A stretch of 46,056 bases of DNA. Origin: Bradymonadaceae bacterium. GTDB lineage: Bacteria; Myxococcota_A; Bradymonadia; Bradymonadales; Bradymonadaceae. The stretch is from contig JBFIHF010000012.1 of assembly GCA_041601915.1 (NCBI GenBank), positions 1-46,056 of the forward strand, read 5' to 3'. The translations under genes were made by a program, and so were the position numbers. Shown in pieces: positions 130 through 44,400 of this stretch; the first letter of the stretch is position 1, and every line of letters starts with the position of its first letter. The notes beneath the pieces were generated by a model. That model was given only the letters and a program-made list of their open reading frames with translations. It did not search any database and was not told the origin of the DNA.

Positions 130-530
130 CGCGGCGGTATTACTGGAGATGCACGTCCGTCGGACCGTGCGCGTTCTCGGCCGGACCGTGCGCGTTCTCG
201 GCCGTGCGGGAGATGCACGTCCGTCGGACCGTGCGCGTTCTCGGCCGGGACCGTGCGCGTTCTCGGCCGTGCGCGTTCTCGGCCGTGCGCGTTCTCGGCC
301 GGACCGTGCGCGTTCTCGGCCGGACCGTGCGCGTTCTCGGCTCGGACCGTGCGCGTTCTCGGCTGCTCGCGATCTACTTCCGTCGGTCGGTGCGGTCGGG
401 GGTGCCCCGGTGCGTTCGGGGGTGCCGGTCGCGGTGCGCGTTTCGAGGGGCGCGTGCGAACGTGGACCTGGTGGCGGCTGCGATCGCGGCGCCGCTGCTC
501 GCGATCTACTTCCGTCGGTCGGTGTCGCCG
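130..530. repeat. Complex tandem-repeat array, non-coding. About 9 copies of a GTGCGCGTTCTCGGCC core, mostly as a 21-nt unit GGACCGTGCGCGTTCTCGGCC (~155-365). There are 2 copies of a 37-nt GAGATGCACGTCCGTCGGACCGTGCGCGTTCTCGGCC unit, and 2 copies of the 31-nt GCTGCTCGCGATCTACTTCCGTCGGTCGGTG at 362-392 and 494-524.
   Basis: Direct reading of the sequence shows head-to-tail repeats with no intervening unique spacers. The array lies in the 3' flank of the minus-strand pspA gene, which ends at 556. Confidence 0.85.
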
Positions 531-555
531 CGGGGGCGCCAGGTGTCGCGGGGGG

Positions 556-2539: not shown

Positions 2540-4501
2540 ATGATGACGCCTCTCGCCTTCGGTACCCAACTCGATACTGTGTCTGACGACGTCGACCATA
2601 AGTTGTCCCACGACACGCCGACCTTGAGGTCGCTCGTGACGCCCGGCGACGAGGCGATCGGCGGGGACGATTCGCCCGATGCGCTGGTGATCAAGGTCTG
2701 CCGATCGTGCACGCGGTCCGCGCCCGACGACGCGGACTTTTGCCCGGAGTGCGGCGGCGACCTCGTCTCGATTCGGCGTGTCCCGGACATGTATCTGGAA
2801 GAGGTGATCGGCGGGAAGTACCGCATCGTCGAGAAGGTGGGCCAGGGCGGCATGGGTGTCGTGTACCTGGCGCGCAACGACGAGCTCGGCCAGAAAGTCG
2901 CGGTGAAGTTCCTGTCGCAGAAGTTCGCCGACGACGAGAATCTCGTCCTGCGGTTTCTCAACGAGGCGAAGAGTTACTGCCGGGTCAATCACCCCAACGC
3001 GGTGACCCTGCTCGACTACGGTCAACATGGTGACGGCGGGCCGCTGTTCATCATCACCGAGTTCATCGAAGGCAAGAACGTCACGGAGACGCTCAAGGAT
3101 CGCGGGCCGCTGCCGGCGGACACGGTGCTCGACCTCGGGTCGCAGATCGCCGAGGTGCTCTCCGCGGCGCACAGTCAGGGGGTGATCCACCGCGATCTGA
3201 AGCCCGACAACATCATGTTGATGCCGCTTTCGCGGGGCCGCTACGCGGTCAAGGTGCTCGATTTCGGGATCGCGAAGATCGTCGACGAAGAGGAGGGACC
3301 CAACACGGAGACCGGTTCGGTGTTCGGCACGCCGGAGTTCATGTCGCCCGAACAGGCCCGTGGCGACGAGGCCGACGGGCGATCGGACATCTACGCGCTG
3401 GGCGTGATCCTGTTCTACATGATCACCGGCAAGCTCCCGTTTCGGGGCAAGAACAAGCTGGTCGTGCTGAACATGCAGCTCAATGACCCGCCGCCGCGGC
3501 CGCGGGAAGTGCTGCCGACCACCGATCTGTCGGCCCGATTCGAGACGGTGATCATGAAGTGCCTCAACAAGGGGCCGAATCAGCGCTACGCGTCGGCCGA
3601 TGACCTGCTGGAGGCGTTTGAGGAGCTACGCGTGCCCAGCGGCAGCGCGACCTCGCGCGTGGGGACCGTGCGTGAAACCGCCGCCACACCTCGGCTGCTC
3701 GATAGCGCGGAGGGCCACTGGGAGGAGATTCACTCCCACGGTGAGACGCTTGCTTCCCTGGAGAACTCGGTCGTCGAGTGGGAAGTCGAGTCGATCGAGA
3801 TGGGTCGCCAGCACGACACGGGGCGAGCCCCGCCGCCCGATCGTGGCCCGGGAGCGGTGTCGATTGCGGTGTTGATCGTGGCGGTACTCGCCGTGGCGGC
3901 GCTGTTGTGGCTGGCGCTGGCCGATGATGCGCCTCCGGCCTCGCCCACCCCCAACGAGGCCGTTGAAGACGATCGCACGGAGCAGGTCGATGCCTCGCAC
4001 CGGGACGCGGTGATCGGGATCGTGCGCCGACTGATCGAAGACGGGAAGCTCGAGGACGCGCGCACGACCTATGACTACTCGCCCGTGAGCGATTCGGAGG
4101 CGCGCAAGACGTTGAACCGCGAGCTCACAGCGCTGGAGCGGGTCGGCCGCGATCTCGATGCCGCAATCGCCGCGAAAGATTGCGGGAAGGCCGCGGGGAT
4201 TGCCGCGAGCGTGGCGACCAAGGGTGTTCGCCTCAAGTTCGGCGAGCGTGTCACCGCGTGTCAGGCCGCGGTGAACCCGGTCGTTGCGCCGGCGCCGGCG
4301 CCAGACAAGCAGCCCGTGGTCGAACAACCTCCGGTTCCCGTGGTCCGCCCCAATCCTCAACCCAAACAGGATCCGAAGCCCACACCAGAGCTCGATCCAG
4401 AGCCGGATCCGCCCGTCGTCGAGGCTGAGACCAGCCCGAAACCTGCCAGCGAGAGCGTGCCCGACGACATGACGCTGCCGCCAAAAACACTCGACGATTA
4501 G
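2540..4501 (+). CDS. Membrane-spanning Ser/Thr protein kinase. It has an N-terminal Zn-ribbon, the kinase domain, one TM helix and an extracytoplasmic domain with a Pro-rich tail.
   Basis: The kinase motifs are canonical: GQGGMGVVY, VAVK, HRDLKPDNIM, DFGIAKI and APE-like SPEQ. The N-terminal Zn-ribbon is CRSCTRS...CPECGG. The TM segment is AVSIAVLIVAVLAVAALLWLALA. The start could instead be the in-frame ATG at 2516. Confidence 0.85.
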   Translation: MMTPLAFGTQLDTVSDDVDHKLSHDTPTLRSLVTPGDEAIGGDDSPDALVIKVCRSCTRSAPDDADFCPECGGDLVSIRRVPDMYLEEVIGGKYRIVEKVGQGGMGVVYLARNDELGQKVAVKFLSQKFADDENLVLRFLNEAKSYCRVNHPNAVTLLDYGQHGDGGPLFIITEFIEGKNVTETLKDRGPLPADTVLDLGSQIAEVLSAAHSQGVIHRDLKPDNIMLMPLSRGRYAVKVLDFGIAKIVDEEEGPNTETGSVFGTPEFMSPEQARGDEADGRSDIYALGVILFYMITGKLPFRGKNKLVVLNMQLNDPPPRPREVLPTTDLSARFETVIMKCLNKGPNQRYASADDLLEAFEELRVPSGSATSRVGTVRETAATPRLLDSAEGHWEEIHSHGETLASLENSVVEWEVESIEMGRQHDTGRAPPPDRGPGAVSIAVLIVAVLAVAALLWLALADDAPPASPTPNEAVEDDRTEQVDASHRDAVIGIVRRLIEDGKLEDARTTYDYSPVSDSEARKTLNRELTALERVGRDLDAAIAAKDCGKAAGIAASVATKGVRLKFGERVTACQAAVNPVVAPAPAPDKQPVVEQPPVPVVRPNPQPKQDPKPTPELDPEPDPPVVEAETSPKPASESVPDDMTLPPKTLDD

Positions 4502-4536
4502 GGCGCCCTCAAAGGTGATCACTTAAGGTGCCGCGA

Positions 4537-4865
4537 ATCCGCTGGTCTGCTCAATAATCCCCTATCCGCCGGTCCGCCGGTCCGCCGGTCCGCCGGTCCG
4601 CCGGTCCGCCGGTCCGCCGGTCCGCCGGTCCGCCGGTCCGCTGGTCTGCTGGTCGCCGGTCAAATTCAAACTAAGACCCACACTCGGTTCATGGAGCCAC
4701 CACGCGAAGCGTCGGAGCAACCTCGAGCCTGCTGGTGAACCGCGGCCTCGCCCGTGGAGCGCGAGTGCCTCGTGCGCTTCGCGTGGTGGTTCTGTAGTTG
4801 GTGCGTGGGTCTTAGTTTGAAATTGACCAGCAGACCAGCAGACCAGCGGACCAGCGGAGCGGAAC
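4537..4865. repeat. Long palindromic (hairpin) repeat element, copy A. Arms start GTTCCGCTGGTCTGCTGGTC...GGTCAAATTCAAACTAAGACCCAC and the inner stem is CCACCACGCGAAGCG/CGCTTCGCGTGGTGG. The left arm carries an expanded (CCGGTCCG)n octamer tract.
   Basis: Reverse-complementing the right arm (4801-4865) reproduces the left arm (4628-4683) almost base-for-base. A second copy of the same architecture is at 41207-41419. Confidence 0.8.
4562..4641. repeat. Octamer microsatellite (CCGGTCCG), about 9-10 units, embedded in the left arm of palindromic element A.
   Basis: Perfect tandem units are visible in the sequence. Copy B of the element has only 3 units of the related GCTGGTCT motif, so the tract appears expanded here. 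Confidence 0.9.
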
Positions 4866-4910
4866 ACTTGTGTTGAGTACGCCGTAAGATCCTACCTATT
4901 AGGGCGCCCG

Positions 4911-4948
4911 CCAAAAATGAAAGGCCCACGGGTCACCGTGAGCCTTTC
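4911..4948 (-). terminator. Rho-independent terminator for the minus-strand gene ending at 4984.
   Basis: On the minus strand the sequence reads GAAAGGCTCACGG-GTGAC-CCGTGGGCCTTTC, a ~12-bp stem with one mismatch, followed by ATTTTTGG. Confidence 0.6.
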
Positions 4949-4983: not shown

Positions 4984-5487
4984 TCAGCGCAACACGATGA
5001 CGGTTTTCGCGAGCGCGCTCTGCCCGTACCCGCGGCTGAACACCATCAAGTACTTTCGGTTCGGCGCGAACTTGGATCCGAGCTCGGCGTGCCCATTGAG
5101 GATCTTCTCCGTGCGATCGGAAGGGTAGAAGGTGAAGGTGTCCACCAACTGCTGGGTGCCAGGATTCGTGACGTCGTAGAACGAAATCGCGGCCTGCAAG
5201 GACGCCACCGGCTTGGGCAGGAACGCCATGTACTCGAACTCCCACTTTCCCGATTCGTTGGCGGTGATCTCGTGGGTGTTGACGCTCTTCATGTGCTTGT
5301 ACATCTCATCGTCGCTGCCGAAGCGCGACGGGAAGCGTTTGGTGCTCACCACGATATCGCCGTTCAGCCTCGAAATCCCGCCCTTGGCCGACGCGGGGGA
5401 GCTGATGAGGACGAAGCTCAAGGTGAGCAACAGGCTGATCATGGTGGAAAAGGCGCGATTTTTCTGCAGCTGACGAGTTCGCAACAC
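4984..5487 (-). CDS. Small secreted protein of unknown function, 167 aa, with a predicted signal peptide.
   Basis: A GTG start at 5487 is preceded by AGGAG with a 6-nt spacer. The N-terminus has a positively charged n-region plus MISLLLTLSFVLISSPASA. No recognisable domain was found. The GC content is visibly lower than in neighbouring genes. Confidence 0.6.
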   Translation of the reverse strand: MLRTRQLQKNRAFSTMISLLLTLSFVLISSPASAKGGISRLNGDIVVSTKRFPSRFGSDDEMYKHMKSVNTHEITANESGKWEFEYMAFLPKPVASLQAAISFYDVTNPGTQQLVDTFTFYPSDRTEKILNGHAELGSKFAPNRKYLMVFSRGYGQSALAKTVIVLR

Positions 5488-10134: not shown

Positions 10135-12338
10135 CGGTGACGCGTGAGATGGTGCACGAACACGGCTTGACGGACCTCGAGTACGACCACGCGCTGAACG
10201 TCCTCGGCCGCACGCCGACGCTGACGGAGCTCGGCATCATCAGTGTGATGTGGTCGGAACACTGCTCCTACAAGTCCAGTCGGATTCACCTCGCGACGTT
10301 GCCCACCGACGGGCCGCAGGTCGTTCAGGGGCCCGGCGAGAACGCCGGTGCGGTCGATATCGGTGGCGGGCTCGCCGCGGTGTTCAAGATGGAGTCGCAC
10401 AACCATCCCAGTTTCATCGAGCCCTACCAGGGCGCGGCGACGGGCGTCGGCGGCATCCTGCGCGACGTGTTCACGATGGGCGCGCGCCCAATCGCGAACC
10501 TCAATAGCTTGCGGTTTGGTCGGATCGACCATCCGAAGACTCCGCACCTGTTCTGGGGCGTGGTGGGCGGCATCGCTGGGTATGGCAACTGCGTCGGCGT
10601 CCCGACGGTCGGCGGCGAGATCTACTTCGACAGCTGCTACGACGGGAACATCCTGGTCAACGCGTTCACGTTGGGGGTCTGTCCGACGGACGGGATCTTC
10701 AAGGGCATCGCCGCGGGCATCGGGAATCCGGTGTTCTACGTCGGGGCCGGGACGGGGCGCGACGGGATTCACGGGGCGACGATGGCGTCCGCGGAGTTCG
10801 ACGCGGACTCCGATGAGAAGCGCCCCACGGTGCAGGTCGGCGACCCCTTTCGCGAGAAGCTGCTCATCGAGGCGTGCCTCGAGTTGATGCAGACCGGCGC
10901 GATTGTCGGGATCCAGGACATGGGAGCGGCGGGCCTCACCAGTTCTTCGGTCGAGATGGCCGATCGCGGCAAGGTGGGGCTGCTGCTCGACATCGACCGC
11001 GTGCCGATGCGCGAGGACGGCATGACGGCCTACGAGGCGATGCTCTCCGAGTCCCAAGAGCGAATGCTGGTCGTCATCGAAGAGGGCCGTGAGGACGAGG
11101 TCCAGCGCGTGTTCCAGAAGTGGGAACTCGAGTGGGCGCAGGTCGGTGAAGTCATCGAGGAGCAAGTGCTTCGGGTGATGCAGCACGGTGAGGTACAGGC
11201 GGAGCTGCCAGTGGGGCTGCTCACGTCCGACGCCCCGCAGTACGATCGTCCGCGGTCGCGGCCGCGATACCTCGACGCGCTGTCTTCGCCGCCGATCGAC
11301 GCGCCGGTCTCCCTGGAGGCCGCGTTCATCGAGCTGCTGTCGAGCCCGAACATCGGATCGCGCGCGCCGGTTTGGGAACAATACGACCACATGGTGGGCG
11401 TGGGGACCGTCGTCAATCCGGGGCAGGCCGGCGCCGCGGTCCTTCGGATCCCGGGGACGGACCGCGCGGTGGCGCTCGCCGTGGATTGCAACAGCCGCAA
11501 GGTCTACGTCAACCCGCGCGAGGGCGCGCGCCATGCGGTCGCGGAGTGTTCACGCAACGTCGCATGCACGGGGGCACGACCGCTGGGCACGACCGATTGT
11601 CTGAACTTCGGCGACCCCACCGTTCCCGAAGTGATGTGGCAGCTCGTCGAGGCGATCGCGGGGCTCGGCGAAGCCTGTCGCGCGCTCGACGTGCCGATCG
11701 TCGGAGGCAATGTGAGCCTCTACAACACCACGGACGGCGTCAGCATCTACCCGACACCGACTGTTGCGGTCGTCGGTGCCTTCGAGCAGCCGATTGGCCG
11801 CGACGAGCGCGGCGACGTGGGCTTCGTGGCCGGGAGCTGCCAGGCCGCCCACGACGCGGTCGTGCTGCTGGGCGCCACGGATGCGAGCGACCTCGGCGCG
11901 TCCGAGTACTTGTTTCTGAGGACGGGCTCGATTGGCGCCTCGATTCCGCGCATCGACCTCGACGCGGAGGCGCGGCTGCAACAGCTCGTGCGGAGCCTCG
12001 TGGCGGCGCGCTCGATCCGCAGCGCACACGACTGCGCTGAGGGCGGCCTCGGGATCGCGTTGGTGGAGACTGTCCTGGGCACCCCGTTCGGTATCGAGCT
12101 GGAGCTCGAGCCGATCGACCGACCGGATCTGTGGCTGTTCAGCGAGTCACCCTCGCGGGTCATCGTCTCGACGCCCAGCGCTGATACGGTACTGGCGGCG
12201 GCGGCGGCGGCGGGCGTCCCGGCGACCGTGATCGGCACCGTCACCGATGTCGCGCTGCTTCGATGGCGGGGGTTGTTGGAGCTCGTGCTAGACGATGCGC
12301 GCGAGGCTCACGCCGGCGCGCTCGCCCGGCTCAGTTGA
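10131..12338 (+). CDS. purL: FGAM synthase subunit PurL.
   Basis: The N-terminus [50 protein letters not shown] is characteristic of PurL. The two AIRS-like halves are present. Confidence 0.9.
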
Positions 12339-17050: not shown

Positions 17051-17058
17051 GCCCTAGC

Positions 17059-20750: not shown

Positions 20751-23700
20751 ATGTCCAAAGACCAAGACAAGCGCCATAACATCGACCAGACGTCCCCCGA
20801 TCTCGGTCCTGCTTTCGAGCCGGACGGGACGTTCCTGGAGGACTGGTCGATGGCGGAAGACCTCGCGGAGGGCCGCGACGGCGGCTACGCCCCGACCCGC
20901 GATCCGTCTCCTCGCAATGTCGATGACGTGCATCGGTCGGCATGGATCGATCTGGACGAAGTCGCCGACGCGGCGAGTTCCGTAATCCTGGAGCTGCTCG
21001 ATGACGAGTTCCTGGAGATCAGCAGCGGCCGAGATTTCGGCGAGGGGACGATCGACGAACTTCAGCGTGTGATGTCGCAGCCGCTCGGTGAGGCGCCGGA
21101 GCCCGAGATCCCCCGAGTGGATACGCAGGAGATCGAGATTTTCGCCGACGACGAGTCGGCGGACCCGTTTGACGCGACCGGGATTCAGATCATCGACGTC
21201 GACACCGGGGAGGTGATGCCGACGCTGGACTCGGGCTTCCTGCTGATCGACGACAACGAGTCGTCGAAGCGGAACCTCGCGATGACGCTGGACGGCGTGT
21301 CCGCGCAGATCGACCTGCCACGGCCGTGGGGTGCGTATCTGGGTGAGCTTCGCGACGAGATCGTCGCGCAATCGGACCCGAGGACGCGCGCGGCGTACAT
21401 CTTCATCTTCGGTGAGCTCATCCGGACGCTGGGCGCCTCGACGTCGAGTCGCCCCCCCGACGTCGACATCTCCGCGATCGCGGGGACGATGACGCGCCCC
21501 GATCTGCTGGAGCGGCTGTCGGCGCAGTGGGCCTCTCCGCGGTCGAGCTTCTTCGAGCTGCTCGCTCGGCTGGAGCGGCTCGACGAGCCGGAGGAAGGGG
21601 CGGTCGCGACCGTCCGGCGCTCATCGATCGTGCGCGAGCGGTTGCTCGACGGGGGGCTCGATGACGCGACGCGTCTGCGACTGCGCGAGCTACTCACTCC
21701 GCCGGAGAGCTTTCACGCGCTGGTGGTCAAGGCCGTCGATGCCCATGCGGCGGGCGAAACCGCGGTGGCGATCGGGGCATGGGAGGGGCTGAGCCAGTAC
21801 ACCAAAGGCGAGCTCGCGACGGCGTGCATCGCGCTCACGGGATGGCTGCTGCAAGGGACCCGCGGTTTGCTCGAGGTGGGCAACGCCCAGCTCGATGTCG
21901 GCCGGAACTCGCGACCGCTGCTGCTGATGATGCAGCGCGAAGCGGTGCGCTTTGCGGACCGGCTTCAGGAGGCGCGCGTGCTCAAGCGCCTGGTCGGCCT
22001 CGATGTGCACCTCGGCAAGCGGCTGCCCGACGAGGCCGGGGCCCGGTCGCGGCTCAAGGCTGAAACGGCCGCGCGCCTGTTCCGGTTGTCCACGATCATC
22101 GAGGGGATCTCCGAGACCGAGATCGCGAGCTCCGACGTCGCGGGCATGACGAGCTACTCGGTGCTGCTGGACGCGATTTCGCTGAGCGCGAAGAACCCGT
22201 TGTTTCTGCGGCGGCTCGAGGTGCAGGCGCGGCGGCGCGGCGACCAGGCGATGCTGGAGAAGGCGCTGATCTCGTTGGCGGCGGTCGTTGGCGAACCCCA
22301 CGTGCGCGCCGTGATTTGGGAGCGCATCGCCGATCTTGCGCGCCGCAGCGGCGCATCGCCGGAGATCGTCCGCGATCACCTGGAGCGGTCGTTGGACGCC
22401 GCCCCGGACTGTCTGCCGGCCTTGATCTCGATGGGACAACATCTCATCCGGACCGGCAGCTTCGAAGCGATGGTCAACCTGCGCGGCGGTCCGTCCACGG
22501 AGGAGTCGGCGGACCTGAACCTCGCGTGGCGCCGGGCGGAGCTGCTGGAACGCACCGGCGGCGACCCGGTCGAGATTCTGTCGCTGTATCGCGACGCGCG
22601 CGATGATCATCCGGCCAGCGTGCACTTGTTCTTCTGCGTCGAGCGCGCGTTGGCGCGGCTTGCCGACTGGCGCGGGCTGCGGACGTTGTACGAATCGGCG
22701 GTCGCGCCGGACAGTGGGCTCGCGGAGAACTTGCGGGCCAGTCGATTCAACGCCGAGCAGTACCGACTGGCGGTCGAGGCGTTCCTTGAGGACGCGTCCG
22801 GTGACCTGTCCGACGCGATGGTCCGGCACCTCGATCGGCCCGGCACCGCGACGGCGCAGGACGACACCGACGAACTTCGCATCGATCAAAACGTGCTCTG
22901 GCGCGTCGTCGCCGAAGAGATCGACCAGGACCCGGGGCGCACGCTGGGTCGACTCGAGGTGCTGCTGCAGACCTCGCGCGGCAAGTCGCCTGCGTGGCGA
23001 CTGCGCGCGCTGATCTGGTATGCGCACCTCGTCGAGGATGTGATGGGGGAGGCCGAGCGCGCGCTGCCCGCCTATCGTGAGGTCTTCGATCGCGCGCAGG
23101 GTGGCTTCCTGCGCCGGTGGGCGGTCCGCGGACTGCTGCGGACCGGCGACGCATCGTGGGTCGCGGAGCATCTCGCCGAGGGCGGGGGCCCCGCGTGGGT
23201 GGACCGCGACGGCGACCACGTCAGCTTCCGGCGCCGCATGGCCGCGGAGTTGATGGGGATGTCGGCCGATGCGGGCCAGGCGCTGGACATCCTCGAGGAG
23301 ATCGAGACGGACGACGATGTCGCGCTGGCCGAGCTCGCGGAGCGCGCCACCGTGCTGGCGATCCGGTCTCGGCAATGGGTTCGCGCGATCCCGTGGATGT
23401 TTCGCTGCTACCCCGAGCACTCTCGCGGCGCGCTCGCCGAGATTGCGCGCCACTTCGGTGCGGCGTTCGACGACGCCGATGAGGCCCTGCGCTACATCGA
23501 CGCGGCGCAGACGCGCACTCCGTTGGACCCCTATGTCATCTTGTGCGAACTGGAGCTCGCGTACCGCGCGCGGGATTGGGGGCGCGCGCTGGACCTGATT
23601 CAGGACGGACTCGGCACCATTGCGGCGGGCTCGATCGACTTTCGGGCGTTCTTGCTCGAGCAGGCGATCCTCGTGGCAGAGTGGGGCGAGCGCAGCGACG

Positions 23701-26700
23701 AACGCGCCCTGACGTTCCTCGAAGATCTGTGGAGCTTGCAGGCGACGGTGGGGTCGTCCCCGATTTTCGGCGCGGCGGCGTTCCTGCGCACCTACGCGCG
23801 CATGAAGCGCGGAGCCGAGCTGTCCGAGCACACCGAATACGTGCGCGCGAACTTCACGCCGTCGGTTGCCGAAGCGCTGCTCGGCGAGTCGCTCGTCTAC
23901 GAGGAGGCGTCGTCGGGAGCGGAAGCCGGGGCGTGGTACACGTCGCGCCTCGACAGCGTGCCGACCCCGCTGATCCCGTACTACCGGTTCATGGCGGCCG
24001 TGGTCGGCTGGATGTTCGGCGATCGCGACCGCACGGCGGTCCAAGACCTCGCCGACGCCACCGCGGCGAGTGACCCGACCCATCGCGTGGGCCCGTTTCT
24101 GTTGGCGATCGCGTATCGGCACGCCGACATGTACGCGTCGTGCGAGCGCCAACTGACGGCGCTGCGCACCCCGGGCCACAGCCGGCCGGTGCAGGACTGG
24201 GTGCTGGTGCGCCAACTGTTCCATCTGGCGGTGACACAGAACCAGACGCAAGAAGCGTTGGAGATGCTTCGTCAGGACGAGGCGTTCGGGCAGTTCGCCT
24301 GGTATTCGATCGCCGAGGAACTCTTCGCGCGAGCGCTGCGCGATCCGAGCGTGGTACCGGCGCTGGCCGAGCGCGCGAAGACGTCCGCCGGATCGCGGAA
24401 CCTGCATCTCGAGATCGCGGAGATTACCGGGGACCGCGAAGCGCTCGTCGCGCTGGCCGAGGACGAACTCCCCGAAGCGGTCGGCCAGGCGGAGATGCTC
24501 GCGGCACAAGGCGTCGCGGTATCGTTGCCGCGTTGGGACATCACCGACCGGCACGCCGCGCTGCTCACCAGCATCCGGGAGTCGTCGGCCGACGTCGCCG
24601 AACAGGTGGTCGACTATTTCAGCGACGTCGACGAAGAGCTGTTGGGCTCGCCGTGGTGTCCGCTTCGCGCCGTGAACGGGGATCTGCACCGGTTCGGTTT
24701 GAGCCGTGCGCAGCAGGACGCGTTGAGGCGACGCTGCGGCGAGTTCTCCGAGGTGGAGATGGGTGCGGAGGCGCGCCTGGTCTTGGCCCGGCAGCTACTG
24801 CGGTCTGGTCGGCGCGATGATGCGACGGCCTTGATGCCGCAGGGGCCAAGCTGGCACCTCGTCTCGGTCGCATGGTCGCTGTTCAACTTCGCCGTCGATC
24901 CGTTCAACCGAGATGCGAAGACGACGCACTGGGTGCTCGACCTGTGGGATCGCCGTCAAGGGATGTCTCGGAGCACCCTCGATTCGGAACTCGAGTACGA
25001 GATCGGGCGGTACCTGGAGCTCGTCGGCCAGCACGGCGAGGCGATCGACGCGATGCGCCGCGCGCTGAAGTCGTCCCCGCGGTTTCTGCCGGCGCAGGTC
25101 GCGGCGGGCCGGATGCTGATCGTCGCCGAGGACTGGCACGGCCTCGCCTCGCTGTGGGAAGCGGAGATGGAGTTCACCGAGGACGTGCAGGCGCTGGCGA
25201 GCGTCGCGTTCCGGCTCGGGTATCTGTGGGAACGCCGACTTCACGATCTTCCCGACGCGCGCCGCCACGCCGAGGACGCGTATCGACGCGTCTTGCGCGT
25301 GCGTCCGAACCACTTCCCTACGCTGCACGCGTTGCTGGGGATGGCGTATGACGCCCAGGACTGGGCCGCGGCCGCCGAACACCTCGAGGCGATCGCGACC
25401 TCGTGTCCGGATGCCGCGCTGCGCTCGTCGTATCTGTGCGAGCTCGCCGCCACGCGGGAGACGCATCTGGAGGACCTGCCGGGCGCGTGTGCCGCGTACC
25501 GCGGGGCGTTCCAGATCAGCCCGGAGTCCGTCGACGCGTTGTTTGGCGTGTTGCGCACCGACACGGACTCCCACGTCACCGTCGACGTGATTCGCGCGCG
25601 GCTGCGCCACGGCGTGACGCAGCGTGAGTTGCGCGAGCTCTGTCACCATTTGTTTGCCGCGACGCGCACCGACGCCGCGGCGGACGACCTGCTGTCCGAT
25701 GCGATGCCGACTCACTATGCGTGGCTGACCTCGAAGCTCATCCGCGGTGCGGAGGCCGGCAAGTTCGACGAGTCCGCGGCGGAGGCACTCAGCGACCATT
25801 ACGGCGAGGAGCCGACGCGGTTCATGATCGAGGCGTTCCGGCGCCGGATGGAGCCGCAGACCGTCGCAGGGATGAACAACCTCGTCGAGCTGTCACGTGG
25901 AATTGGCACGCATCCGCTCGCCGAGGGCCAGCTCGTGCGATGCATGCACTACGCGCGGCGGACAGGTGACCTCGAGGCGCTCGGCACTCTGGCGGGCGTG
26001 CGCGCACGCCGTTCGGCGACCGAGTTGGTACGTGCTGCGGAGCTGACGTGGCTCGCGGTGACGCTGATGCTGCGCGAGGAATGGGACGACGCACTGGAGA
26101 TCACCCAGCAGCTCCTCGAACAGGTGCCCAACTTTCTGCCCGCCGTGAAGACGGCGAAATACGCCGCGGACGTCGCCCAGGACTGGGAAGCGGTGGTGCG
26201 CTGGTTCGAGGCGGACGCGGTGCTGACGCTGGTGCCTGAGATCGCGTCTCGCGATCGGCTGTACGCATCCGAAGTCCAGCAACGCCACCTCGGTGACTTC
26301 GACGCCGCGCTCACTCAGCTGCGCACGGTGCTGCTGTCCAAGCCGACGCACCCCGAAGCGTTCACGAAGCTTCGCGACATCCTGCTCACGAAGCGCCAGT
26401 ATGTCGAACTACTGGAGGCCTACGAAAGTCGTGTCGCGCACACGACGTCCGAAGAGGAGCGGTCGGAGCTGCTCAACCAGATGGGCGATATCGCGCTCAA
26501 TCACGTGCGCGATCGGCCGCTGTCGATCGGGTTCTACAGCCGCTCCCTCGAGTTGCGACCGCGTCAACTCCGCCGGTTGCGCGTGCTGTCCGAGCTCTAC
26601 GAGGCCGAGCAGCGCTGGGACCGCGCGGTGGTGTGTCATCGCGCCTCCGCGGAGCTCATCGGCGATACGATCGTGCTCGGACGTCTGTGGTGCCACATCG

Positions 26701-28052
26701 GGATGTTGTACGAGACGAAGCTGCTCGACCTGAAGAAGGCCAAGAACGCGTACGCGCAGGCGCTCAAGATCGACTCGGACGCCACCGAAGTGCTGCTCGC
26801 GCTGGCGCGGGTGTGCGAGCGCCTCGAAGACTACGCGGACGCGGCGGCGCTGCAGAGCAAGGTCGTGATGATCTCCCGGGACGCCAAAGTGCTGCTCGAT
26901 GCTCGCATCGGCATCGCGCGACTGCAGCAGCGCCTCGGGGCGTCGCCGGCCGAGGTGCTGGGCGCGATCCGGAACGTCCTGTTGCACCACCCCGGCCACG
27001 GGCCGTCGATCGACGCGGCGAAGAAGGCGCTCGCCCGCACCGGGCTCCCGGGCGACACCGAAGACTTCTTCCAGGACCTGTCGCACGCGATCATCACGCA
27101 GCACGGGGCGGCGGCGTTGCCGTCGACTTACGAGATGGCGATGAATCTGGGTCACCGCGACCGCGCCTACTGCATCGCGTCGATCGCCCGCGAGCTCAAC
27201 GTGGCGTCGCCCCCGATGCAACAGATTCTGCAGGAGCTGTCGACGCAGCGCCGCTGGCCGGTGCGACCGCTGCCGCCGGAATTGACGGGGGCGGTGCTCC
27301 CCGAAGGGCTCGTCGCCCCGTTCGTCGAGCTGCTGCGCCGCAGCCGTGACGCGATCTTCGAGGGGATGGACTCGATGCCCGCCCAGCAGATGGTCAAGAA
27401 GGGGAGCCGACTGCGCGAGCCAAAGAACAAGGCGACGCAGCTGGCGTTCCAGTGGCCGGGCTTGTTTGGCCTCGAGCTGCGTGACGTCCACACGCTCAAA
27501 GGCGTCCCGGGCGGCTGTGCGGTGCACTTTGATGGCGGCGTGCGACTCGTCCTCGACGAGCGCTGGCTGGAGGTCAAGGAGCCCACGGCGCTGCTCGTCT
27601 CGCTGGGCGAACACCTCGCGGCGTGGTCGATGGGCATTGGTCCGTGGGCGTTGTTGGACCCCGACGCCCAGCAGTCGCTCTTCATCGCGATCGTCTCGAA
27701 CTACGTGCGCGGCTGGGCTCACGCGGAGCGAGCCCATCTGCCGAAGACGATCGTCTACCCACGGATCCAGCGCTGGCTGGAGCGCAAGGGCCAGAAAGTG
27801 GCGCCGTATGCGCTCGAGATCTCCGGTCGCTTTGGTGCCGCCGCGATTCGTCAGCAATTCGAGCTGTTGCACGAAGCGGAGAAACGCCTCGCATGCCTGT
27901 TGATCGACGACCCCGGCAGTGCGCTCAACGCGACGGGGCTCTTGCGCAAACCGCAAGCGGGCGAGCGGCCGGCGTGGCTGTTCATGCTCGGCGCGCCGGC
28001 CGCCCGGTTGCGCAAGGCCGTCGGGGTCACGGTGGGTGAGCCCCGGGCGTGA
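20751..28052 (+). CDS. Giant (2433 aa) cytoplasmic TPR-rich all-helical protein with an acidic disordered N-terminus.
   Basis: A single ORF uninterrupted over 7.3 kb. The N-terminal ~200 aa are D/E-rich. There are multiple TPR-like units, e.g. ...FRLGYLWERRLHDLPDARRHAEDAYRRVLRVRPNHFPTLHALLGMAYDAQDW... and ...IGMLYETKLLDLKKAKNAYAQALKIDSDATEVLLALARVCERLEDYADAA.... No signal peptide is present. Confidence 0.75.
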   Translation: MSKDQDKRHNIDQTSPDLGPAFEPDGTFLEDWSMAEDLAEGRDGGYAPTRDPSPRNVDDVHRSAWIDLDEVADAASSVILELLDDEFLEISSGRDFGEGTIDELQRVMSQPLGEAPEPEIPRVDTQEIEIFADDESADPFDATGIQIIDVDTGEVMPTLDSGFLLIDDNESSKRNLAMTLDGVSAQIDLPRPWGAYLGELRDEIVAQSDPRTRAAYIFIFGELIRTLGASTSSRPPDVDISAIAGTMTRPDLLERLSAQWASPRSSFFELLARLERLDEPEEGAVATVRRSSIVRERLLDGGLDDATRLRLRELLTPPESFHALVVKAVDAHAAGETAVAIGAWEGLSQYTKGELATACIALTGWLLQGTRGLLEVGNAQLDVGRNSRPLLLMMQREAVRFADRLQEARVLKRLVGLDVHLGKRLPDEAGARSRLKAETAARLFRLSTIIEGISETEIASSDVAGMTSYSVLLDAISLSAKNPLFLRRLEVQARRRGDQAMLEKALISLAAVVGEPHVRAVIWERIADLARRSGASPEIVRDHLERSLDAAPDCLPALISMGQHLIRTGSFEAMVNLRGGPSTEESADLNLAWRRAELLERTGGDPVEILSLYRDARDDHPASVHLFFCVERALARLADWRGLRTLYESAVAPDSGLAENLRASRFNAEQYRLAVEAFLEDASGDLSDAMVRHLDRPGTATAQDDTDELRIDQNVLWRVVAEEIDQDPGRTLGRLEVLLQTSRGKSPAWRLRALIWYAHLVEDVMGEAERALPAYREVFDRAQGGFLRRWAVRGLLRTGDASWVAEHLAEGGGPAWVDRDGDHVSFRRRMAAELMGMSADAGQALDILEEIETDDDVALAELAERATVLAIRSRQWVRAIPWMFRCYPEHSRGALAEIARHFGAAFDDADEALRYIDAAQTRTPLDPYVILCELELAYRARDWGRALDLIQDGLGTIAAGSIDFRAFLLEQAILVAEWGERSDERALTFLEDLWSLQATVGSSPIFGAAAFLRTYARMKRGAELSEHTEYVRANFTPSVAEALLGESLVYEEASSGAEAGAWYTSRLDSVPTPLIPYYRFMAAVVGWMFGDRDRTAVQDLADATAASDPTHRVGPFLLAIAYRHADMYASCERQLTALRTPGHSRPVQDWVLVRQLFHLAVTQNQTQEALEMLRQDEAFGQFAWYSIAEELFARALRDPSVVPALAERAKTSAGSRNLHLEIAEITGDREALVALAEDELPEAVGQAEMLAAQGVAVSLPRWDITDRHAALLTSIRESSADVAEQVVDYFSDVDEELLGSPWCPLRAVNGDLHRFGLSRAQQDALRRRCGEFSEVEMGAEARLVLARQLLRSGRRDDATALMPQGPSWHLVSVAWSLFNFAVDPFNRDAKTTHWVLDLWDRRQGMSRSTLDSELEYEIGRYLELVGQHGEAIDAMRRALKSSPRFLPAQVAAGRMLIVAEDWHGLASLWEAEMEFTEDVQALASVAFRLGYLWERRLHDLPDARRHAEDAYRRVLRVRPNHFPTLHALLGMAYDAQDWAAAAEHLEAIATSCPDAALRSSYLCELAATRETHLEDLPGACAAYRGAFQISPESVDALFGVLRTDTDSHVTVDVIRARLRHGVTQRELRELCHHLFAATRTDAAADDLLSDAMPTHYAWLTSKLIRGAEAGKFDESAAEALSDHYGEEPTRFMIEAFRRRMEPQTVAGMNNLVELSRGIGTHPLAEGQLVRCMHYARRTGDLEALGTLAGVRARRSATELVRAAELTWLAVTLMLREEWDDALEITQQLLEQVPNFLPAVKTAKYAADVAQDWEAVVRWFEADAVLTLVPEIASRDRLYASEVQQRHLGDFDAALTQLRTVLLSKPTHPEAFTKLRDILLTKRQYVELLEAYESRVAHTTSEEERSELLNQMGDIALNHVRDRPLSIGFYSRSLELRPRQLRRLRVLSELYEAEQRWDRAVVCHRASAELIGDTIVLGRLWCHIGMLYETKLLDLKKAKNAYAQALKIDSDATEVLLALARVCERLEDYADAAALQSKVVMISRDAKVLLDARIGIARLQQRLGASPAEVLGAIRNVLLHHPGHGPSIDAAKKALARTGLPGDTEDFFQDLSHAIITQHGAAALPSTYEMAMNLGHRDRAYCIASIARELNVASPPMQQILQELSTQRRWPVRPLPPELTGAVLPEGLVAPFVELLRRSRDAIFEGMDSMPAQQMVKKGSRLREPKNKATQLAFQWPGLFGLELRDVHTLKGVPGGCAVHFDGGVRLVLDERWLEVKEPTALLVSLGEHLAAWSMGIGPWALLDPDAQQSLFIAIVSNYVRGWAHAERAHLPKTIVYPRIQRWLERKGQKVAPYALEISGRFGAAAIRQQFELLHEAEKRLACLLIDDPGSALNATGLLRKPQAGERPAWLFMLGAPAARLRKAVGVTVGEPRA

Positions 28053-28965: not shown

Positions 28966-30074
<1,109 letters not shown>

Positions 30075-30078
<4 letters not shown>

Positions 30079-41186: not shown

Positions 41187-41206
41187 TCTGACCAGCCTGC
41201 CGTCGT

Positions 41207-41419
41207 GTTCCGCTGGTCTGCTGGTCTGCTGGTCTGCTGGTCAACCTCAAACTCAAACTGGAGCCGCGCTCAAACCCCGGAGCCACCACGCGAAGCGCCA
41301 AGCCCAGCCGTGGAGACGAGCTGCTCGACGCGTCGCGTGGTGGCATTCCGGCCGTAGTGCGGGTCCAGTTTGAGTTTGAAGTTGACCAGCAGACCAGCAG
41401 ACCCGCGGACCAGCGGAAC
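41207..41419. repeat. Long palindromic (hairpin) repeat element, copy B. It has the same termini (GTTCCGCTGGTCTGCTGGTC...) and inner core (GGAGCCACCACGCGAAGCG...CGCGTGGTGG) as copy A.
   Basis: The left arm at 41207-41270 and the reverse complement of 41355-41419 are near-identical. It lies between the convergent ogt and kinase genes. Confidence 0.8.
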
Positions 41420-41430
41420 AGAACGGCCCG

Positions 41431-44400
41431 CTAGTTCTCGATCAGGAGCTGCGCGACGTTGAGGATCTTGCGGTTCAAGGGCTTTGCCAGGTAGGTCCGG
41501 CGCAGCTCCTCGTCGTTGATCTTGTCGCGTCGATGGATGACCACCTCGCGAGCCCGTGTGATCGCCTGGCGGCGCTCGTCTTCGAACTCCGGGCCGTCCG
41601 GCAAGATCTGGGTATGGTGGTAGAGAATGTCCTCCAGCGAGAACACCTCACCCTCGTTGACCAACTCCAGCGCGAGGTTCGAGTGTTCGATGGCGCGCTC
41701 GCGTTTGCCCAGAATCTTGTGCGCGCGCGCCATGAGGCTGTGCGCGTACCCCATACCCCACTTCATGTCCGCTTGCTCGGAGCGCTCCAGCGCATCCTCG
41801 GCCTGCATCAGCGCGATGCGCGCGGTGTCGGTCGTCGCGGCGGCCAGATGGACCTGGGCGAGCTGGAGCGTGGCGTGAACGGACAGGTAGACGTTGGGGA
41901 TCGAGTCCGCGAGCCGTAGCCCTTCATGCAGCGACGACTCCGCCTTCTTGTGATCGCCTTCCTCGATGTGCAGCGAGCCCATCGAGATGAGACCGTCGGC
42001 GAGGTTCTGAATCGAGCCGCCGCGGCGCGCGAGGTAGATGCCGCGGCGCACCGATGTCTGCGCCTTGTCGTACTCGCCGCGCAGCAGATGGCAGTGACCG
42101 ATGTTGACGAGCAGCGTCGCCTCTTCCCCGCGATGGCCGAGCTGGCGGACGCGGGTCAGCGCGTCCTCGTAGCGGGCGAGCGCTTCGGAGAATTCGCCGA
42201 GGTAGGCGAGGGCGAGGCCGGCGTTGTTGAGCAGGTAGCGACGCCACTTTCGCAGGTCGAGTGATTCGGCGTACCCGAGCGCGTCCTGGTAGGCCTGCAG
42301 CGCCTCGTGATGGCGCCCGGCCTGGCGGTGCGTGATGCCGATCAGATTAAGCGCTCGCACGAGGCCCTCGGACCCCGCCGGGCCGTCTTGCGTGAACGTC
42401 TCGACGGCGCGTCGCCCAAGCTCGATCGCCTCGTCGCGTTTTCCCTCGTTCAGGAAGATCATCGCCTCCACGAGCGAGGCATGCGCGAGGTTCCCCGCGT
42501 CATCGTTGGCTTTGGCGATGTCGCGAGCGCGATGGGAGTACTCGCGCGCGCGCCGCAATTGCGATTGTTCGAACGCGAAGCGCGCCTGCTGGATCAGCGT
42601 ATCTGCTTGCTCACGCGCATCGCCGCGCTCGGTGGCGAGTCGTTCGAGCTCATCGAGCGCGGCGCGGCATTCGTCGCGCTGGCCCAGTTCGCCCAATGCG
42701 CGCGCGCGGATCTTGAGCGCTTCGTAGTGGAACTCGTCGCCCGGCGCCACGCGCTCGAGGACCTTGTCGATCAGGCGCAGCGACTCCGCCGCGCCGTACT
42801 GCTCCAGCGCGTCATCGGCGGCCTGAAAATAGAACGCCACGGAGCGATCCTTCTCGCCCGCGCCGTCGAAGTGACGCGCGATCAGAGCAGACCGGCTATG
42901 GGTGCCGCTCGCGTTCTCCAGCAGGTGGTCGGCGAGGCGGCGATGCAGCATCGCGGCCTCTTCGGGCAGCAGCCCGGCGGCTGCGACGTCCTGCGTCAGC
43001 GCGTTACAGAACGCAAACTCACGGGAGTGCGGCGCCGTCTGGTTCGGATCGAACGTGTCCACCTGCATGCCGTCGGTGCGATCGATGCGTTCGAGCAGCC
43101 CGAGCGTCACCAACTCCGCTAGCTCGATGAAAGGCTCGTCGGGCAGCACGAGACCCAGATCGGCGCCTTTGAACGGCGACCACAGGAACGCGACGCGCTG
43201 CAGTACGACCTTGAGGTGCAGCGGCAGCCGGTCGATGCGCCCGCCGATCAGCCCTTCGACGCTGGATGGCAACCACTGCGGCGCCTTCGTGCGATCCTTG
43301 AGCGAGCGCCGCTCACCGGTGTCACCCTTGAGCATCCCGCGGTCGCGCAGAACCTCGACGACCTCCTTGATGTATAGCGGGTTGCCGCCGGCGCGGCGCA
43401 GGATCTCGGTGGCGAACGAGTCGTCCTGAATGCGGTGCAGCCGCAGCAGATCGAGGACCAGCGCCGCGCTCTCCTGCTCCCCGAGCTCGTTGAGCCGCTC
43501 CACCGTGACGTGCTTGGCTTCGAGCAACGCCTCCCAGTGCGGCTCGCCGGCGTGGCCCGCGGTGTCGTCCGCGGTAAACAGCACCATCGCCGGGGCGGGG
43601 CGCGACGTGGAGAAGAACTGCGTAATGAACTGCAGCGTCATCGTGTCGATGTGGTGCGCATCGTCGAGGGCCAGGATCATCGGCTTCTTCTCGGCGAAGC
43701 GCGTCAGCACCTTCTGCAGCGACAGGAATATGCGGTCGCGCCGCTCGTCGCCCCCGAAGTCGTCGAGCGCCGCATCCGGCCACTTGATGTGGAACAGCGC
43801 GCCGAGGCTCTGCAACAACAGCGTGCGTTCGGCGTCGTCCTCCTCGGGAAACAGCGCCGAGACGCGCGTCATCAGCGTCGACCGTACGAGGCGCAGGTCG
43901 TCGCGATGTTCGAGCCGCAGGATGTCGGCGAGGAAGGTCGCCATCGAACTCAGCGGGACGTCGCGGTGATGCACGCCGACGACGCCACGCACGATCCGCA
44001 CGTTGCGCTGATCGAGGCCGCGCAAGAACTCCTCTACCAGCGTCGACTTTCCAATCCCCTGGCGGCCGACCACGAGCACCATCTGCGCGGTCTGCCCAAG
44101 GATCGTCTCGCGGTAGGTCTCGCGTAGCAGCTTCAGCGGGATCTCGCGGCCGTGAAACCGACTGTAGCTGCGCCGAAGCTCGACCAGCGCGTCTTCGCCG
44201 CTCTTGGGGCCGGTGAGCAGGTAGGCCTGCACCGCCTGGGAGTGGTCATCGTCGGGGTGCTCGACGCGATCGACGGTCTCGGCGTCGTAACGCCTGCGGA
44301 TCCGCCGGTAGACCTGCCCGCCGATCAGGACTTCGCGCGCCATCCCTGCGTGGGCGAGCCGCTCCGCGAGCTCGTTGCCACTGCCGAAGAACGACCACGA

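What the first reader, a model, noticed from the sequence alone, without database searches (positions are those of the whole stretch)
4537..4865. Dispersed long-palindrome repeat family (two copies in 46 kb) with compensatory stem changes
The elements at 4537-4865 and 41207-41419 share their termini (GTTCCGCTGGTCTGCTGGTC...GGTCAA..TCAAACT) and an inner conserved stem (GGAGCCACCACGCGAAGCG ... CGC(T/G)TCGCGTGGTGG). The intermediate stem segments differ: CAAACTAAGACCCACAC/GTGGGTCTTAGTTTG in copy A versus CAAACTCAAACTGGAGCCGCGC/GTGCGGGTCCAGTTTGAGTTTG in copy B. Pairing is still preserved within each copy. That pattern is expected for a structured RNA or for a palindromic element whose hairpin is under selection, such as a REP/MITE-like element or a bidirectional terminator. 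Both copies sit exactly in convergent gene gaps: STPK and small secreted gene for copy A, ogt and the large kinase for copy B.
Basis: seen in the sequence. Interest (0 to 1): 0.6.

Follow-up and report, generated by a model that had tools for sequence, protein, structure and literature searches.

The report
Two-copy palindromic intergenic repeat, likely mobile
Two related, non-coding, roughly 215-330 bp hairpin-forming DNA palindromes sit in the gaps between convergent genes of an uncultured myxobacterium-like organism; they look like an undescribed but ordinary kind of small selfish repeat (MITE/REPIN-like), not a proven structured RNA.

Summary
4535-4868 and 41191-41435 are two related imperfect palindromes. 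They share termini (TGTTCCGCT), inward-pointing octamer arrays (GCTGGTCT)n, a GGTCAA..TCAAACT junction and an inner stem GCCACCACGCGAAGCG. They fold far better than shuffles (z -14 and -19) and are the two largest inverted repeats in the contig.

The "compensatory" evidence is thin: 2-3 paired substitutions and one matched 5-6 nt indel in both arms of copy B.

Both strands fold equally well. There is no U-tract and no Rfam match. The gene next to copy A has its own canonical terminator between its stop codon and the element.

In four syntenic relatives the same STPK/small-gene gap is 5-25 nt, against 482 nt here, so copy A is a lineage-specific gain. No other family member turned up in GTDB representative genomes, JGI metagenomes, IMG/VR, plasmids, phages or about 1.8-5.8 billion predicted proteins. 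The other contigs of the source MAG could not be reached.

Best reading (about 0.6): a new family of non-autonomous foldback-type palindromic repeats (MITE/REPIN-like) tolerated in 3'-3' gaps. Mobility, partner enzyme and copy number are inferred, not shown. This is a new member of a known kind, of modest interest.

The parts
4535..4868 (.). Copy A, family-shared extent, from the degenerate left terminus GAATCCGCT to the right terminus AGCGGAACA(CT)
   Evidence: nhmmer arms 4625-4711 and 4775-4865, E 1e-22 to 1e-25
4552..4564 (.). Copy A: 13-nt AT-rich insert CAATAATCCCCTA that interrupts the left arm
4565..4661 (.). Copy A: one-sided octamer microsatellite, (TCCGCCGG)x9 grading into TCCGCTGG TCTGCTGG; the right arm has no counterpart
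   Evidence: (period 8, 12.2 copies, 93% matches)
4655..4683 (.). Copy A left junction GCCGGTCAAATTCAAACT plus intermediate stem AAGACCCACAC; pairs with 4803-4828
4696..4711 (.). Copy A inner core stem, left half GCCACCACGCGAAGCG
4712..4774 (.). Copy A central 63-nt spacer; shares CCGTGGAG..CGAG.TGC.CTCG with copy B in the same orientation
4775..4790 (.). Copy A inner core stem, right half CGCTTCGCGTGGTGGT
4803..4868 (.). Copy A right arm: intermediate stem, AGTTTGAAATTGACC junction, (GACCAGCR)x4 and terminus GAGCGGAACA
4497..4534 (.). Copy A left outer flank: 12-nt direct repeat ATTAGGGCGCCC (4497-4508, contains the STPK stop codon) and copy-specific sequence that pairs with 4869-4909
   Evidence: D3, I7; P about 6e-4 for a 12-nt flanking direct repeat
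4869..4909 (.). Copy A right outer flank: copy-specific inverted-repeat partner and second ATTAGGGCGCCC (4898-4909)
4919..4948 (-). Context, not part of the element: canonical hairpin+T5 terminator of the 167-aa gene, lying between that gene's stop and copy A
41191..41435 (.). Copy B, full palindrome; family-shared part 41206-41420 (TGTTCCGCT ... AGCGGAACA). It fills the whole ogt/kinase gap and overlaps the kinase stop codon by 5 nt
   Evidence: nhmmer E 1e-27
41212..41242 (.). Copy B left octamer array (GCTGGTCT)x3.9
   Evidence: (100% matches)
41239..41270 (.). Copy B left junction GGTCAACCTCAAACTCAAACT (hexamer TCAAAC duplicated relative to A) plus intermediate stem GGAGCCGCGCT; pairs with 41356-41387
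41282..41297 (.). Copy B inner core stem, left half GCCACCACGCGAAGCG
41298..41328 (.). Copy B central 31-nt spacer
41329..41344 (.). Copy B inner core stem, right half CGCGTCGCGTGGTGGC
41384..41414 (.). Copy B right octamer array (GACCAGCA-type x3.9)

Best explanation
The two loci are copies of one family of non-coding, full-length imperfect DNA palindromes. This is a foldback-type, non-autonomous repeat of the MITE/REPIN kind.

Anatomy of each arm, from outside to centre:
- a 5'-TGTTCCGCT terminus, so the element reads TG...CA end to end;
- three to four inward-pointing octamers GCTGGTCY;
- a GGTCAA-NN-TCAAACT junction;
- a variable stem;
- a non-conserved internal loop;
- a 16-bp conserved core stem.
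A 31-63 nt spacer lies between the arms.

What I infer happened:
- The element entered the very short 3'-3' gaps between convergent genes. Insertion there breaks neither a coding sequence nor a promoter, so it is tolerated.
- Arm symmetry is maintained at the DNA level. Either the mobilising enzyme needs a hairpin or long inverted ends, or imperfect palindromes are corrected by template switching. It is not maintained by selection on a strand-specific RNA.
- The octamer arrays are slippage-prone, as shown by the one-sided expansion to about 12 units in copy A. They may also serve as reiterated protein-binding sites.
- If transcription reads in from either flanking gene, the RNA would carry a hairpin with roughly 80 base pairs. 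That hairpin could impede 3' exonucleases or polymerase, or be cut by RNase III. This would be a side effect.

Shown: the anatomy, the relatedness, the statistical significance, the lack of coding or Rfam identity, the equal folding of both strands, and the absence of the element at the orthologous site in relatives.

Inferred: mobility, mechanism, and any effect on transcripts.
For: - Four arms are mutually 83-91% identical. A profile of them hits only these four places in 843 kb of held DNA.
- The elements are the largest palindromes in the contig and fold with z -14 to -19 as RNA or DNA.
- Both strands fold equally well.
- No Pfam domain is found in the ORFs that cross them.
- No homologue of any of the six reading frames is found among 5.8 billion clusters.
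- An exhaustive phmmer of one open frame against 1.84 billion representatives gave two weak hits (28% identity, to 1531- and 2760-aa proteins) that I did not inspect and take to be noise, and one hit shown to be an unrelated tandem repeat.
- Filled against empty site: orthologous STPK and small-protein genes (54-80% identity, intact C-termini) are separated by 13, 25, 5 and 8 nt in relatives L053, L054, L074 and L075, against 482 nt in the window.
- Those relatives carry no element motifs and no inverted repeat of 28 nt or more in 76 kb.
- Both copies lie in convergent gaps.
- Copy A is bracketed by a 12-nt direct repeat (empirical P about 6e-4).
- Both arms of B carry the same 5-6 nt insertion (a TCAAAC duplication) relative to both arms of A. 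This is easier to explain by DNA-templated symmetry, or by descent from different palindromic master copies, than by independent RNA-compensating mutations.
- Published MITE criteria match in part: size up to about 400 bp, inverted ends, no transposase, very stable predicted stem-loops, filled/empty sites (Delihas 2011, PMC3184786). REPIN behaviour also matches in part: extragenic hairpins with frequent compensatory changes (PMC3116915).
Against: - Only two copies are known, and the rest of the source MAG could not be searched.
- No transposase or RAYT-type gene was found in the Pfam scans, which covered the large ORFs but not every ORF. No longer element with the same ends is known.
- There is no clean target-site duplication abutting the conserved termini.
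- The 12-nt repeat at A lies 26-29 nt outside the termini, and 8 of its 12 bases are a self-palindrome.
- The 9-nt repeat at B (P about 0.02) lies in native coding sequence of both genes. Removing one copy would leave both genes without stop codons, so it is probably chance (reading, comparison with L072).
- The nearest relative with an empty site is only 86% identical in PurL. The comparison therefore shows gain or loss on a long branch, not a recent precise insertion.
- Within-copy arm identity (83-87%) is not higher than between-copy identity (84-91%).
Confidence: 0.6

Rival explanations
1. Structured RNA element: a 3'-UTR hairpin acting as a factor-independent or bidirectional terminator, an insulator between convergent transcription units, or an mRNA-stabilising 3' cap. 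Under this reading, selection on RNA pairing explains the arm symmetry.
For: - Predicted RNA folds are extremely stable.
- Both copies start 4-35 nt after a stop codon in convergent gaps.
- The STPK at locus A and both genes at locus B have no other recognisable terminator.
- There are 2 double-sided pair changes and a matched indel.
Against: - There is no U-tract after either arm on either strand.
- Folding is equal on both strands and G.U bias is not clear.
- Loops and bulges are not conserved, while stems are conserved in sequence.
- There is no Rfam hit, even at E up to 10.
- The small gene at locus A has its own canonical terminator upstream of the element.
- Four relatives with the same gene pair manage with 5-25 nt gaps and no hairpin.
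- The one-sided octamer expansion in A is not compensated.
- A near-perfect duplex of roughly 80 base pairs is atypical of selected RNA structures (general knowledge).
Confidence: 0.15
2. Host-used DNA site: the inverted octamer arrays and the conserved core are reiterated binding sites for a DNA-binding protein, such as a nucleoid-associated, recombination, replication-fork or Chi-like factor. A cruciform-forming palindrome placed between convergent genes could also absorb supercoiling.
For: - There are three to four tandem octamers per arm, all pointing inward, in all four arms.
- GCTGGTCT shares 6 of 8 bases with E. coli Chi GCTGGTGG (my own recollection of Chi).
- The DNA-level fold has z -18.
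- Folding is symmetric between strands.
Against: - The octamer is not over-represented outside the two elements in the contig: 0 further copies on + and 1 on -.
- An 8-bp period does not match the helical repeat.
- The element is absent from relatives.
- No candidate binding protein is known.
- The idea is purely speculative.
Confidence: 0.1
3. Not a family at all: two independent local inverted duplications, or foldback chimeras produced by amplification or assembly of the MAG.
For: The window is a whole MAG contig. Microsatellite copy number in A could be mis-assembled.
Against: - The two loci share about 85-90% identical arms over about 95 nt, including non-repetitive junction and core segments.
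- The arms are imperfect (79-89%), unlike artefactual foldbacks.
- Both sit precisely between intact gene ends.
Confidence: 0.03

Closest known systems
Bacterial MITEs with very stable stem-loops, e.g. Chunjie of Geobacter uraniireducens (178-235 bp, 21-bp TIRs, 9-bp direct repeats, dG about -98 to -130 kcal/mol) and Nezha of Anabaena/Nostoc (PMC3184786)
   Same: - Small and non-coding, with inverted ends.
- Intergenic.
- Folds into a long, very stable hairpin.
- Filled against empty orthologous sites.
- Size range 215-330 bp.
   Different: - The whole element is palindromic, not only short TIRs.
- It is G+C-rich.
- The arms contain tandem octamer arrays.
- No direct repeats abut the termini.
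- No parent IS with the same ends is known.
- Copy number is unknown (2 seen).
- No sequence similarity to any held sequence.
REPINs (REP doublets forming hairpins) mobilised by RAYT transposases (PMC3116915)
   Same: - Extragenic, symmetric hairpin built of two inverted conserved ends and a less conserved spacer.
- Compensatory changes between arms.
- No target-site duplication.
- Plausibly acts as an ssDNA hairpin.
   Different: - In one search the one size given for a REPIN is 71 bp between the first residues of its two invariant 16-mers (GI doublet of SBW25). This element is 215-245 bp (A: 334 bp).
- No consistent GTAG/CGTC-type tag at the ends (my reading against the abstract of PMC3733652).
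- No RAYT gene in the 46-kb contig.
- Abundance is unknown.
Eukaryotic Foldback (FB) transposons, whose long inverted termini are built from short tandem repeats (my own knowledge, not tested)
   Same: Long inverted arms containing arrays of short tandem subrepeats whose number varies between arms and copies.
   Different: - Eukaryotic and kilobase-scale.
- No evolutionary link is implied; the resemblance is architectural only.
Intrinsic (Rho-independent) bidirectional terminators between convergent genes
   Same: A G+C-rich hairpin placed immediately after stop codons in a 3'-3' gap.
   Different: - No U/A tracts flank the stem.
- The stem is about ten times longer than usual.
- A genuine hairpin+T5 terminator sits next to copy A.

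Membership tests
MITE (bacterial miniature inverted-repeat transposable element) | Small (less than about 400-500 bp) and lacking a transposase or any coding capacity | tested here: met
   Sizes are 334 nt (A, family-shared extent 4535-4868; about 409 nt with the outer inverted repeat) and 215-245 nt (B). No Pfam hit on crossing ORFs. No protein homologues in any frame; of three weak hits, one proved to be an unrelated repeat and two were not inspected.
MITE (bacterial miniature inverted-repeat transposable element) | Terminal inverted repeats | tested here: met
   TGTTCCGCTGGTC... / ...GACCAGCGGAACA in three of four ends, degenerate in A-left. The arms are 79-89% complementary.
MITE (bacterial miniature inverted-repeat transposable element) | Target-site duplication directly flanking the ends | tested here: inconclusive
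   No 2-9 nt duplication abuts the conserved termini (reading). A has a 12-nt direct repeat 26-29 nt outside the termini (P about 6e-4). B has a 9-nt repeat inside native coding sequence (P about 0.02) that is probably chance.
MITE (bacterial miniature inverted-repeat transposable element) | Multiple dispersed copies in the genome, and filled/empty sites | tested here: inconclusive
   Two copies lie 36 kb apart in one 46-kb contig. The orthologous site of A is empty in four relatives.
MITE (bacterial miniature inverted-repeat transposable element) | Ends shared with an autonomous IS or transposon | not testable with these tools
   No transposase domain turned up in the Pfam scans of the large ORFs of the window. 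Pattern scans with the junction motif, the junction+core motif, the octamer array or the core found only chance matches in GTDB representatives, JGI metagenomes and IMG/VR; the terminus itself was searched only in the window and four related loci.
REP/REPIN-RAYT system | Two inverted REP units plus spacer forming an extragenic hairpin | tested here: met
   Architecture. The unit is much longer than the GI REPIN described (71 bp between the first residues of its two invariant 16-mers).
REP/REPIN-RAYT system | An associated RAYT (Y1 transposase) gene in the genome, usually flanked by REPs | not testable with these tools
   No such domain in the Pfam scans of the window's large ORFs. Other contigs of the MAG are unreachable.
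REP/REPIN-RAYT system | High copy number (tens to hundreds per genome) | not testable with these tools
   Only this contig is available.
Any curated RNA family (Rfam 15) | Covariance-model score at or above the gathering threshold | tested here: not met
   0 hits at gathering threshold on the whole window. Only noise at E up to 10 on the two loci.
Intrinsic terminator | G+C-rich hairpin followed by a U-tract | tested here: not met
   The scan finds no terminator-like site formed by the element's long arms. It does find the neighbouring 4919-4948(-) terminator, and two weak 5-6-bp matches at locus B, one of them a short internal hairpin at 41260-41278(-) inside the element.

The most novel reading that the evidence does not exclude
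The elements could be the first sighting of an undescribed foldback-type transposon family confined to an uncultured Bradymonadia-like myxobacterial lineage. In that case its TG...CA ends and inward-pointing octamer arrays would be reiterated binding sites for a dedicated DDE-type transposase, or a hairpin-recognising ssDNA transposase. Alternatively they could be a domesticated convergent-gene insulator acting as a DNA cruciform or a long RNA hairpin.
Probability: 0.12. Interest if true: 0.45.

Novelty: new member of a known kind. Interest (0 to 1): 0.27.

Why it matters
If it is a mobile palindromic repeat, it adds an uncatalogued family with an unusual architecture: a full-length palindrome with octamer arrays in the arms. 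It comes from a poorly sampled lineage related to Bradymonadales. It would also give markers for strain typing and for finding the partner transposase. It affects annotation too, because spurious ORFs cross both copies. It is not a result that changes how we think about bacterial repeats. Long, stable, symmetric intergenic hairpins with compensatory arm changes are already well documented for MITEs and REPINs.

Tried and rejected
1. GTDB-representative genome scan with CTGCTGGTCAANNTCAAACT gave 51 single hits in unrelated taxa. None carries the core or the octamers, so they are chance, and the source genome is not in that set.
2. JGI metagenome scan with junction+core gave one chance hit without a palindrome.
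3. IMG/VR scans:
   - The octamer array gave only one-orientation microsatellites.
   - The core 16-mer gave 22 single hits with no inverted partner.
   - Junction+core gave 0.
4. blastn against plasmids and phages gave one 36-nt chance hit and nothing, respectively.
5. Protein-space trick, translating all six frames of both copies to catch spurious ORFs on other copies:
   - No hit among 5.8 billion clusters.
   - An exhaustive phmmer of one open frame gave three weak hits. P0241 and P0242 (28% identity, proteins of 2760 and 1531 aa) were not inspected and are taken as noise. P0243/L076 proved to be an unrelated tandem repeat of about 35 nt.
6. Fetching the source contig, or other contigs of the same MAG, by exact protein: not on record.
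7. Orthologous site of copy B: the closest ogt homologues are not syntenic, so filled/empty status of locus B is unknown.
8. Composite-transposon idea (two same-orientation copies bracketing 36 kb): rejected. The interval is core genome (the pur operon and neighbours) and is syntenic in relatives.
9. Chi-like genome-wide octamer: not over-represented outside the elements.
10. Target-site duplication at copy B: removing one repeat copy leaves both genes without stops, and the ogt C-terminus is native.
11. R-scape-type covariation: not meaningful with two sequences. RNAalifold counts are reported instead.

Full report
**What is there**

The window is a complete 46,056-nt contig of an NCBI MAG. 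Its PurL protein is in the protein collection at 100% identity, on a contig of exactly this length. PurL is 64-70% identical to proteins named Bradymonadaceae, Persicimonas and Myxococcota, so the organism is a distant relative of Bradymonadales. G+C is 66%.

Copy B is a near-complete palindrome, with arms 41191-41270 and 41356-41435 (80 nt, 88% complementary). Copy A has arms 4655-4711 / 4775-4831 (57 nt, 79%) and terminal octamer arms 4617-4654 / 4825-4862 (38 nt, 89%).

Each arm, read from outside to centre, contains:
- a terminus TGTTCCGCT, so the whole element reads TG...CA;
- three to four octamers GCTGGTCY;
- a junction GGTCAA-NN-TCAAACT;
- a variable stem;
- a non-conserved loop of about 11 nt;
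- a 16-bp core, GCCACCACGCGAAGCG.

A 63-nt spacer (A) or 31-nt spacer (B) joins the arms. The spacers share a short motif in the same orientation.

Copy A's left arm is damaged. Its terminus reads GAATCCGCT. A 13-nt AT-rich insert and a one-sided (TCCGCCGG)n array (period 8, 12.2 copies, 4565-4661) separate that terminus from the rest of the arm.

**Is it more than chance?**

Yes.
- The core 16-mer occurs 4 times against 0.18 expected.
- The double octamer occurs 11 times against 0.21 expected.
- Folding z-scores are -14.3 (A) and -19.3 (B) as RNA, and -18.4 (B) as DNA. No shuffle does as well.
- The two elements are the largest inverted repeats in the contig.
- A profile of the four arms finds only these four places in 843 kb of held sequence with a full-length match.

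**How strong is the "compensatory" evidence?**

It is weak.
- RNAalifold on A against B predicts 60 pairs. Only 2 have both sides changed, and 4 have one side changed.
- In a four-arm alignment, 3 substitution columns and one 4-5-column indel are symmetric within copies. Against these stand 1 side-specific column, 2 cross columns and 13 singletons.
- Within-copy arm identity (83% for A, 87% for B) is no higher than between-copy identity (84-91%).

The one telling feature is the matched indel. Both arms of B carry a duplicated TCAAAC that both arms of A lack. Two independent, exactly complementary insertions are unlikely. DNA-templated symmetry fits better, whether through template-switch correction of quasi-palindromes (established in E. 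coli, from my own knowledge) or through descent from two different palindromic master copies. Symmetric changes are also described as common in REPIN DNA hairpins (PMC3116915). They therefore do not indicate an RNA.

**RNA or DNA?**

Several results argue against a selected, strand-specific RNA.
- The two strands fold equally well: B -192.0 against -199.8 kcal/mol, A -216.6 against -220.2 kcal/mol.
- Non-Watson-Crick positions show no clear strand bias. Five are G.U on the + strand, two would be G.U on the - strand, and eight are other mismatches.
- No U-tract follows any arm. The scan finds no terminator-like site made by the long arms; at locus B it returns only two weak 5-6-bp matches, one of them a short internal hairpin at 41260-41278(-).
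- The 167-aa gene beside copy A has its own canonical hairpin+T5 terminator at 4919-4948(-), between its stop codon and the element.
- Rfam gives nothing at gathering thresholds and only noise at E up to 10.
- Stems are conserved in sequence while loops are not. This is the opposite of what most functional RNAs show.

**Context and comparative evidence**

Copy A lies between a Ser/Thr kinase (stop 4499-4501) and a 167-aa protein with a signal-peptide-like N-terminus (stop 4984-4986). Copy B lies between ogt (stop 41184-41186) and a 1468-aa kinase/cyclase/AAA/TPR protein (stop 41431-41433). Copy B fills the whole 244-nt gap.

Four syntenic relatives were retrieved through PurL homologues.

| Locus | PurL identity | Source | STPK/small-gene gap |
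|---|---|---|---|
| L053 | 86% | ENA | 13 nt |
| L054 | 80% | ENA | 25 nt |
| L074 | 70% | GCA_964411125.1 | 5 nt |
| L075 | 70% | GCA_964384605.1 | 8 nt |
| window | - | - | 482 nt |

The small proteins are orthologous (54-80% identity) and their C-termini are intact. The STPK C-terminus is also conserved. The relatives contain none of the element's motifs and no inverted repeat of 28 nt or more in 76 kb.

Copy A, together with the neighbouring terminator, is therefore a gain specific to the window's lineage. The branch is long, so this is not proof of a recent precise insertion.

For locus B no syntenic relative could be found.

**Ends and flanking repeats**

No short duplication abuts the conserved termini.

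Copy A is bracketed by a 12-nt direct repeat, ATTAGGGCGCCC (4497-4508 and 4898-4909). Its empirical P is about 6e-4 against random places in the contig. However, it lies 26-29 nt outside the termini, and 8 of its 12 bases are a self-palindrome. The intervening copy-specific flanks are themselves partly inverted repeats. Deleting 4509-4909 would restore a compact 81-nt gap with the terminator, which is a plausible ancestral state.

Copy B has a 9-nt repeat, CAGGAGCTG (P about 0.02). It lies in native coding sequence of both genes, and removing one copy would leave both genes without stops. I therefore treat it as chance.

Why the copy-specific flanks are partly palindromic remains unexplained. 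One possibility is insertion into a pre-existing hairpin. Another is outward growth of the palindrome.

**Distribution**

No other member was found in any of these searches:
- GTDB representative genomes;
- JGI metagenomes;
- IMG/VR;
- plasmids and phages;
- six-frame translations against 5.8 billion protein clusters;
- one open frame against 1.84 billion representatives, which gave three weak hits: two at 28% identity to large proteins, not inspected and taken as noise, and one that is an unrelated tandem repeat.

The source MAG itself is not in the searchable DNA collections. Genome-wide copy number is therefore unknown.

No transposase or RAYT domain was found in the Pfam scans of the contig's large ORFs. 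The octamer is not enriched outside the elements.

The 36-kb interval between the copies is syntenic core genome, so the two copies do not form a composite transposon.

**Interpretation**

The best-supported reading (about 0.6) is a new family of non-autonomous, foldback-type palindromic repeats of the MITE/REPIN kind. These would be retained in 3'-3' gaps because insertion there is harmless. Arm symmetry would be maintained at the DNA level, and any terminator, insulator or stabiliser effect on read-through transcripts would be a by-product.

The rivals are:
- a selected RNA hairpin or terminator (about 0.15);
- a host-used protein-binding or cruciform DNA site (about 0.1);
- an artefact or independent duplications (about 0.03).

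Compared with published bacterial MITEs such as Chunjie (178-235 bp, very stable folds; PMC3184786) and with REPINs, this element shares size class, lack of coding capacity, inverted ends, extragenic hairpin and filled/empty sites. It differs in being palindromic along its full length, in its octamer arrays, and in lacking an abutting target duplication or a known partner enzyme.

Membership in either family cannot be settled without the rest of the genome.

**Verdict**

The "compensatory" support is thin. The RNA interpretation is unsupported. The element is most likely an ordinary, uncatalogued small palindromic repeat: a new member of a known kind, of modest interest.

Noticed in passing
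window 145-540: Intergenic tandem array downstream of a PspA-like gene (556-1905, - strand). It has a 21-nt unit CGGACCGTGCGCGTTCTCGGC repeated about 10 times, nested 64-nt and 16-nt periods, and a 47-nt direct repeat at 362-408 / 494-540.
   Followed up: no
window 28966-33874: A radical-SAM + Memo + AMMECR1 gene trio is followed by a 768-aa protein with Major Vault Protein shoulder and repeat domains, i.e. a bacterial MVP-like protein.
   Followed up: no
window 20751-28052: A giant 2433-aa TPR-rich ORF. A 2492-aa counterpart begins at the same syntenic position in relative L075.
   Followed up: no
window 36823-36871: A 12-nt tandem repeat AACTTCCCCGGT x4 lies inside the 3' part of a Schlafen-AlbA2 / HATPase_c_4 / Fic-like-C ORF (36589-38292, - strand).
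   Followed up: no
window 4501-4534 and 4869-4909; 41191-41205 and 41421-41435: Sequence outside the family-shared termini is not shared between the two copies. Within each copy it is still partly an inverted repeat; in A it runs out to GGGCGCCC on both sides. This is unexplained. Possible causes are insertion into a pre-existing hairpin or outward growth of the palindrome.
   Followed up: partly
L060-L071 (IMG/VR contigs): The same octamer, as (GCTGGTCT)n / (CAGCAGAC)n microsatellites of 3-8 units, occurs in about a dozen unrelated viral contigs. It is always in one orientation and never part of a palindrome.
   Followed up: partly
L076 1-703: An ENA contig made entirely of tandem repeats of about 35 nt, with a spurious 178-aa ORF. 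It was only a chance protein-level hit to the element's translation.
   Followed up: yes
window 12331-12338 and 17051-17058: Other convergent gene junctions in the contig overlap or are only 8 nt long. The lineage normally packs 3'-3' junctions very tightly, and the two element-bearing gaps stand out.
   Followed up: no
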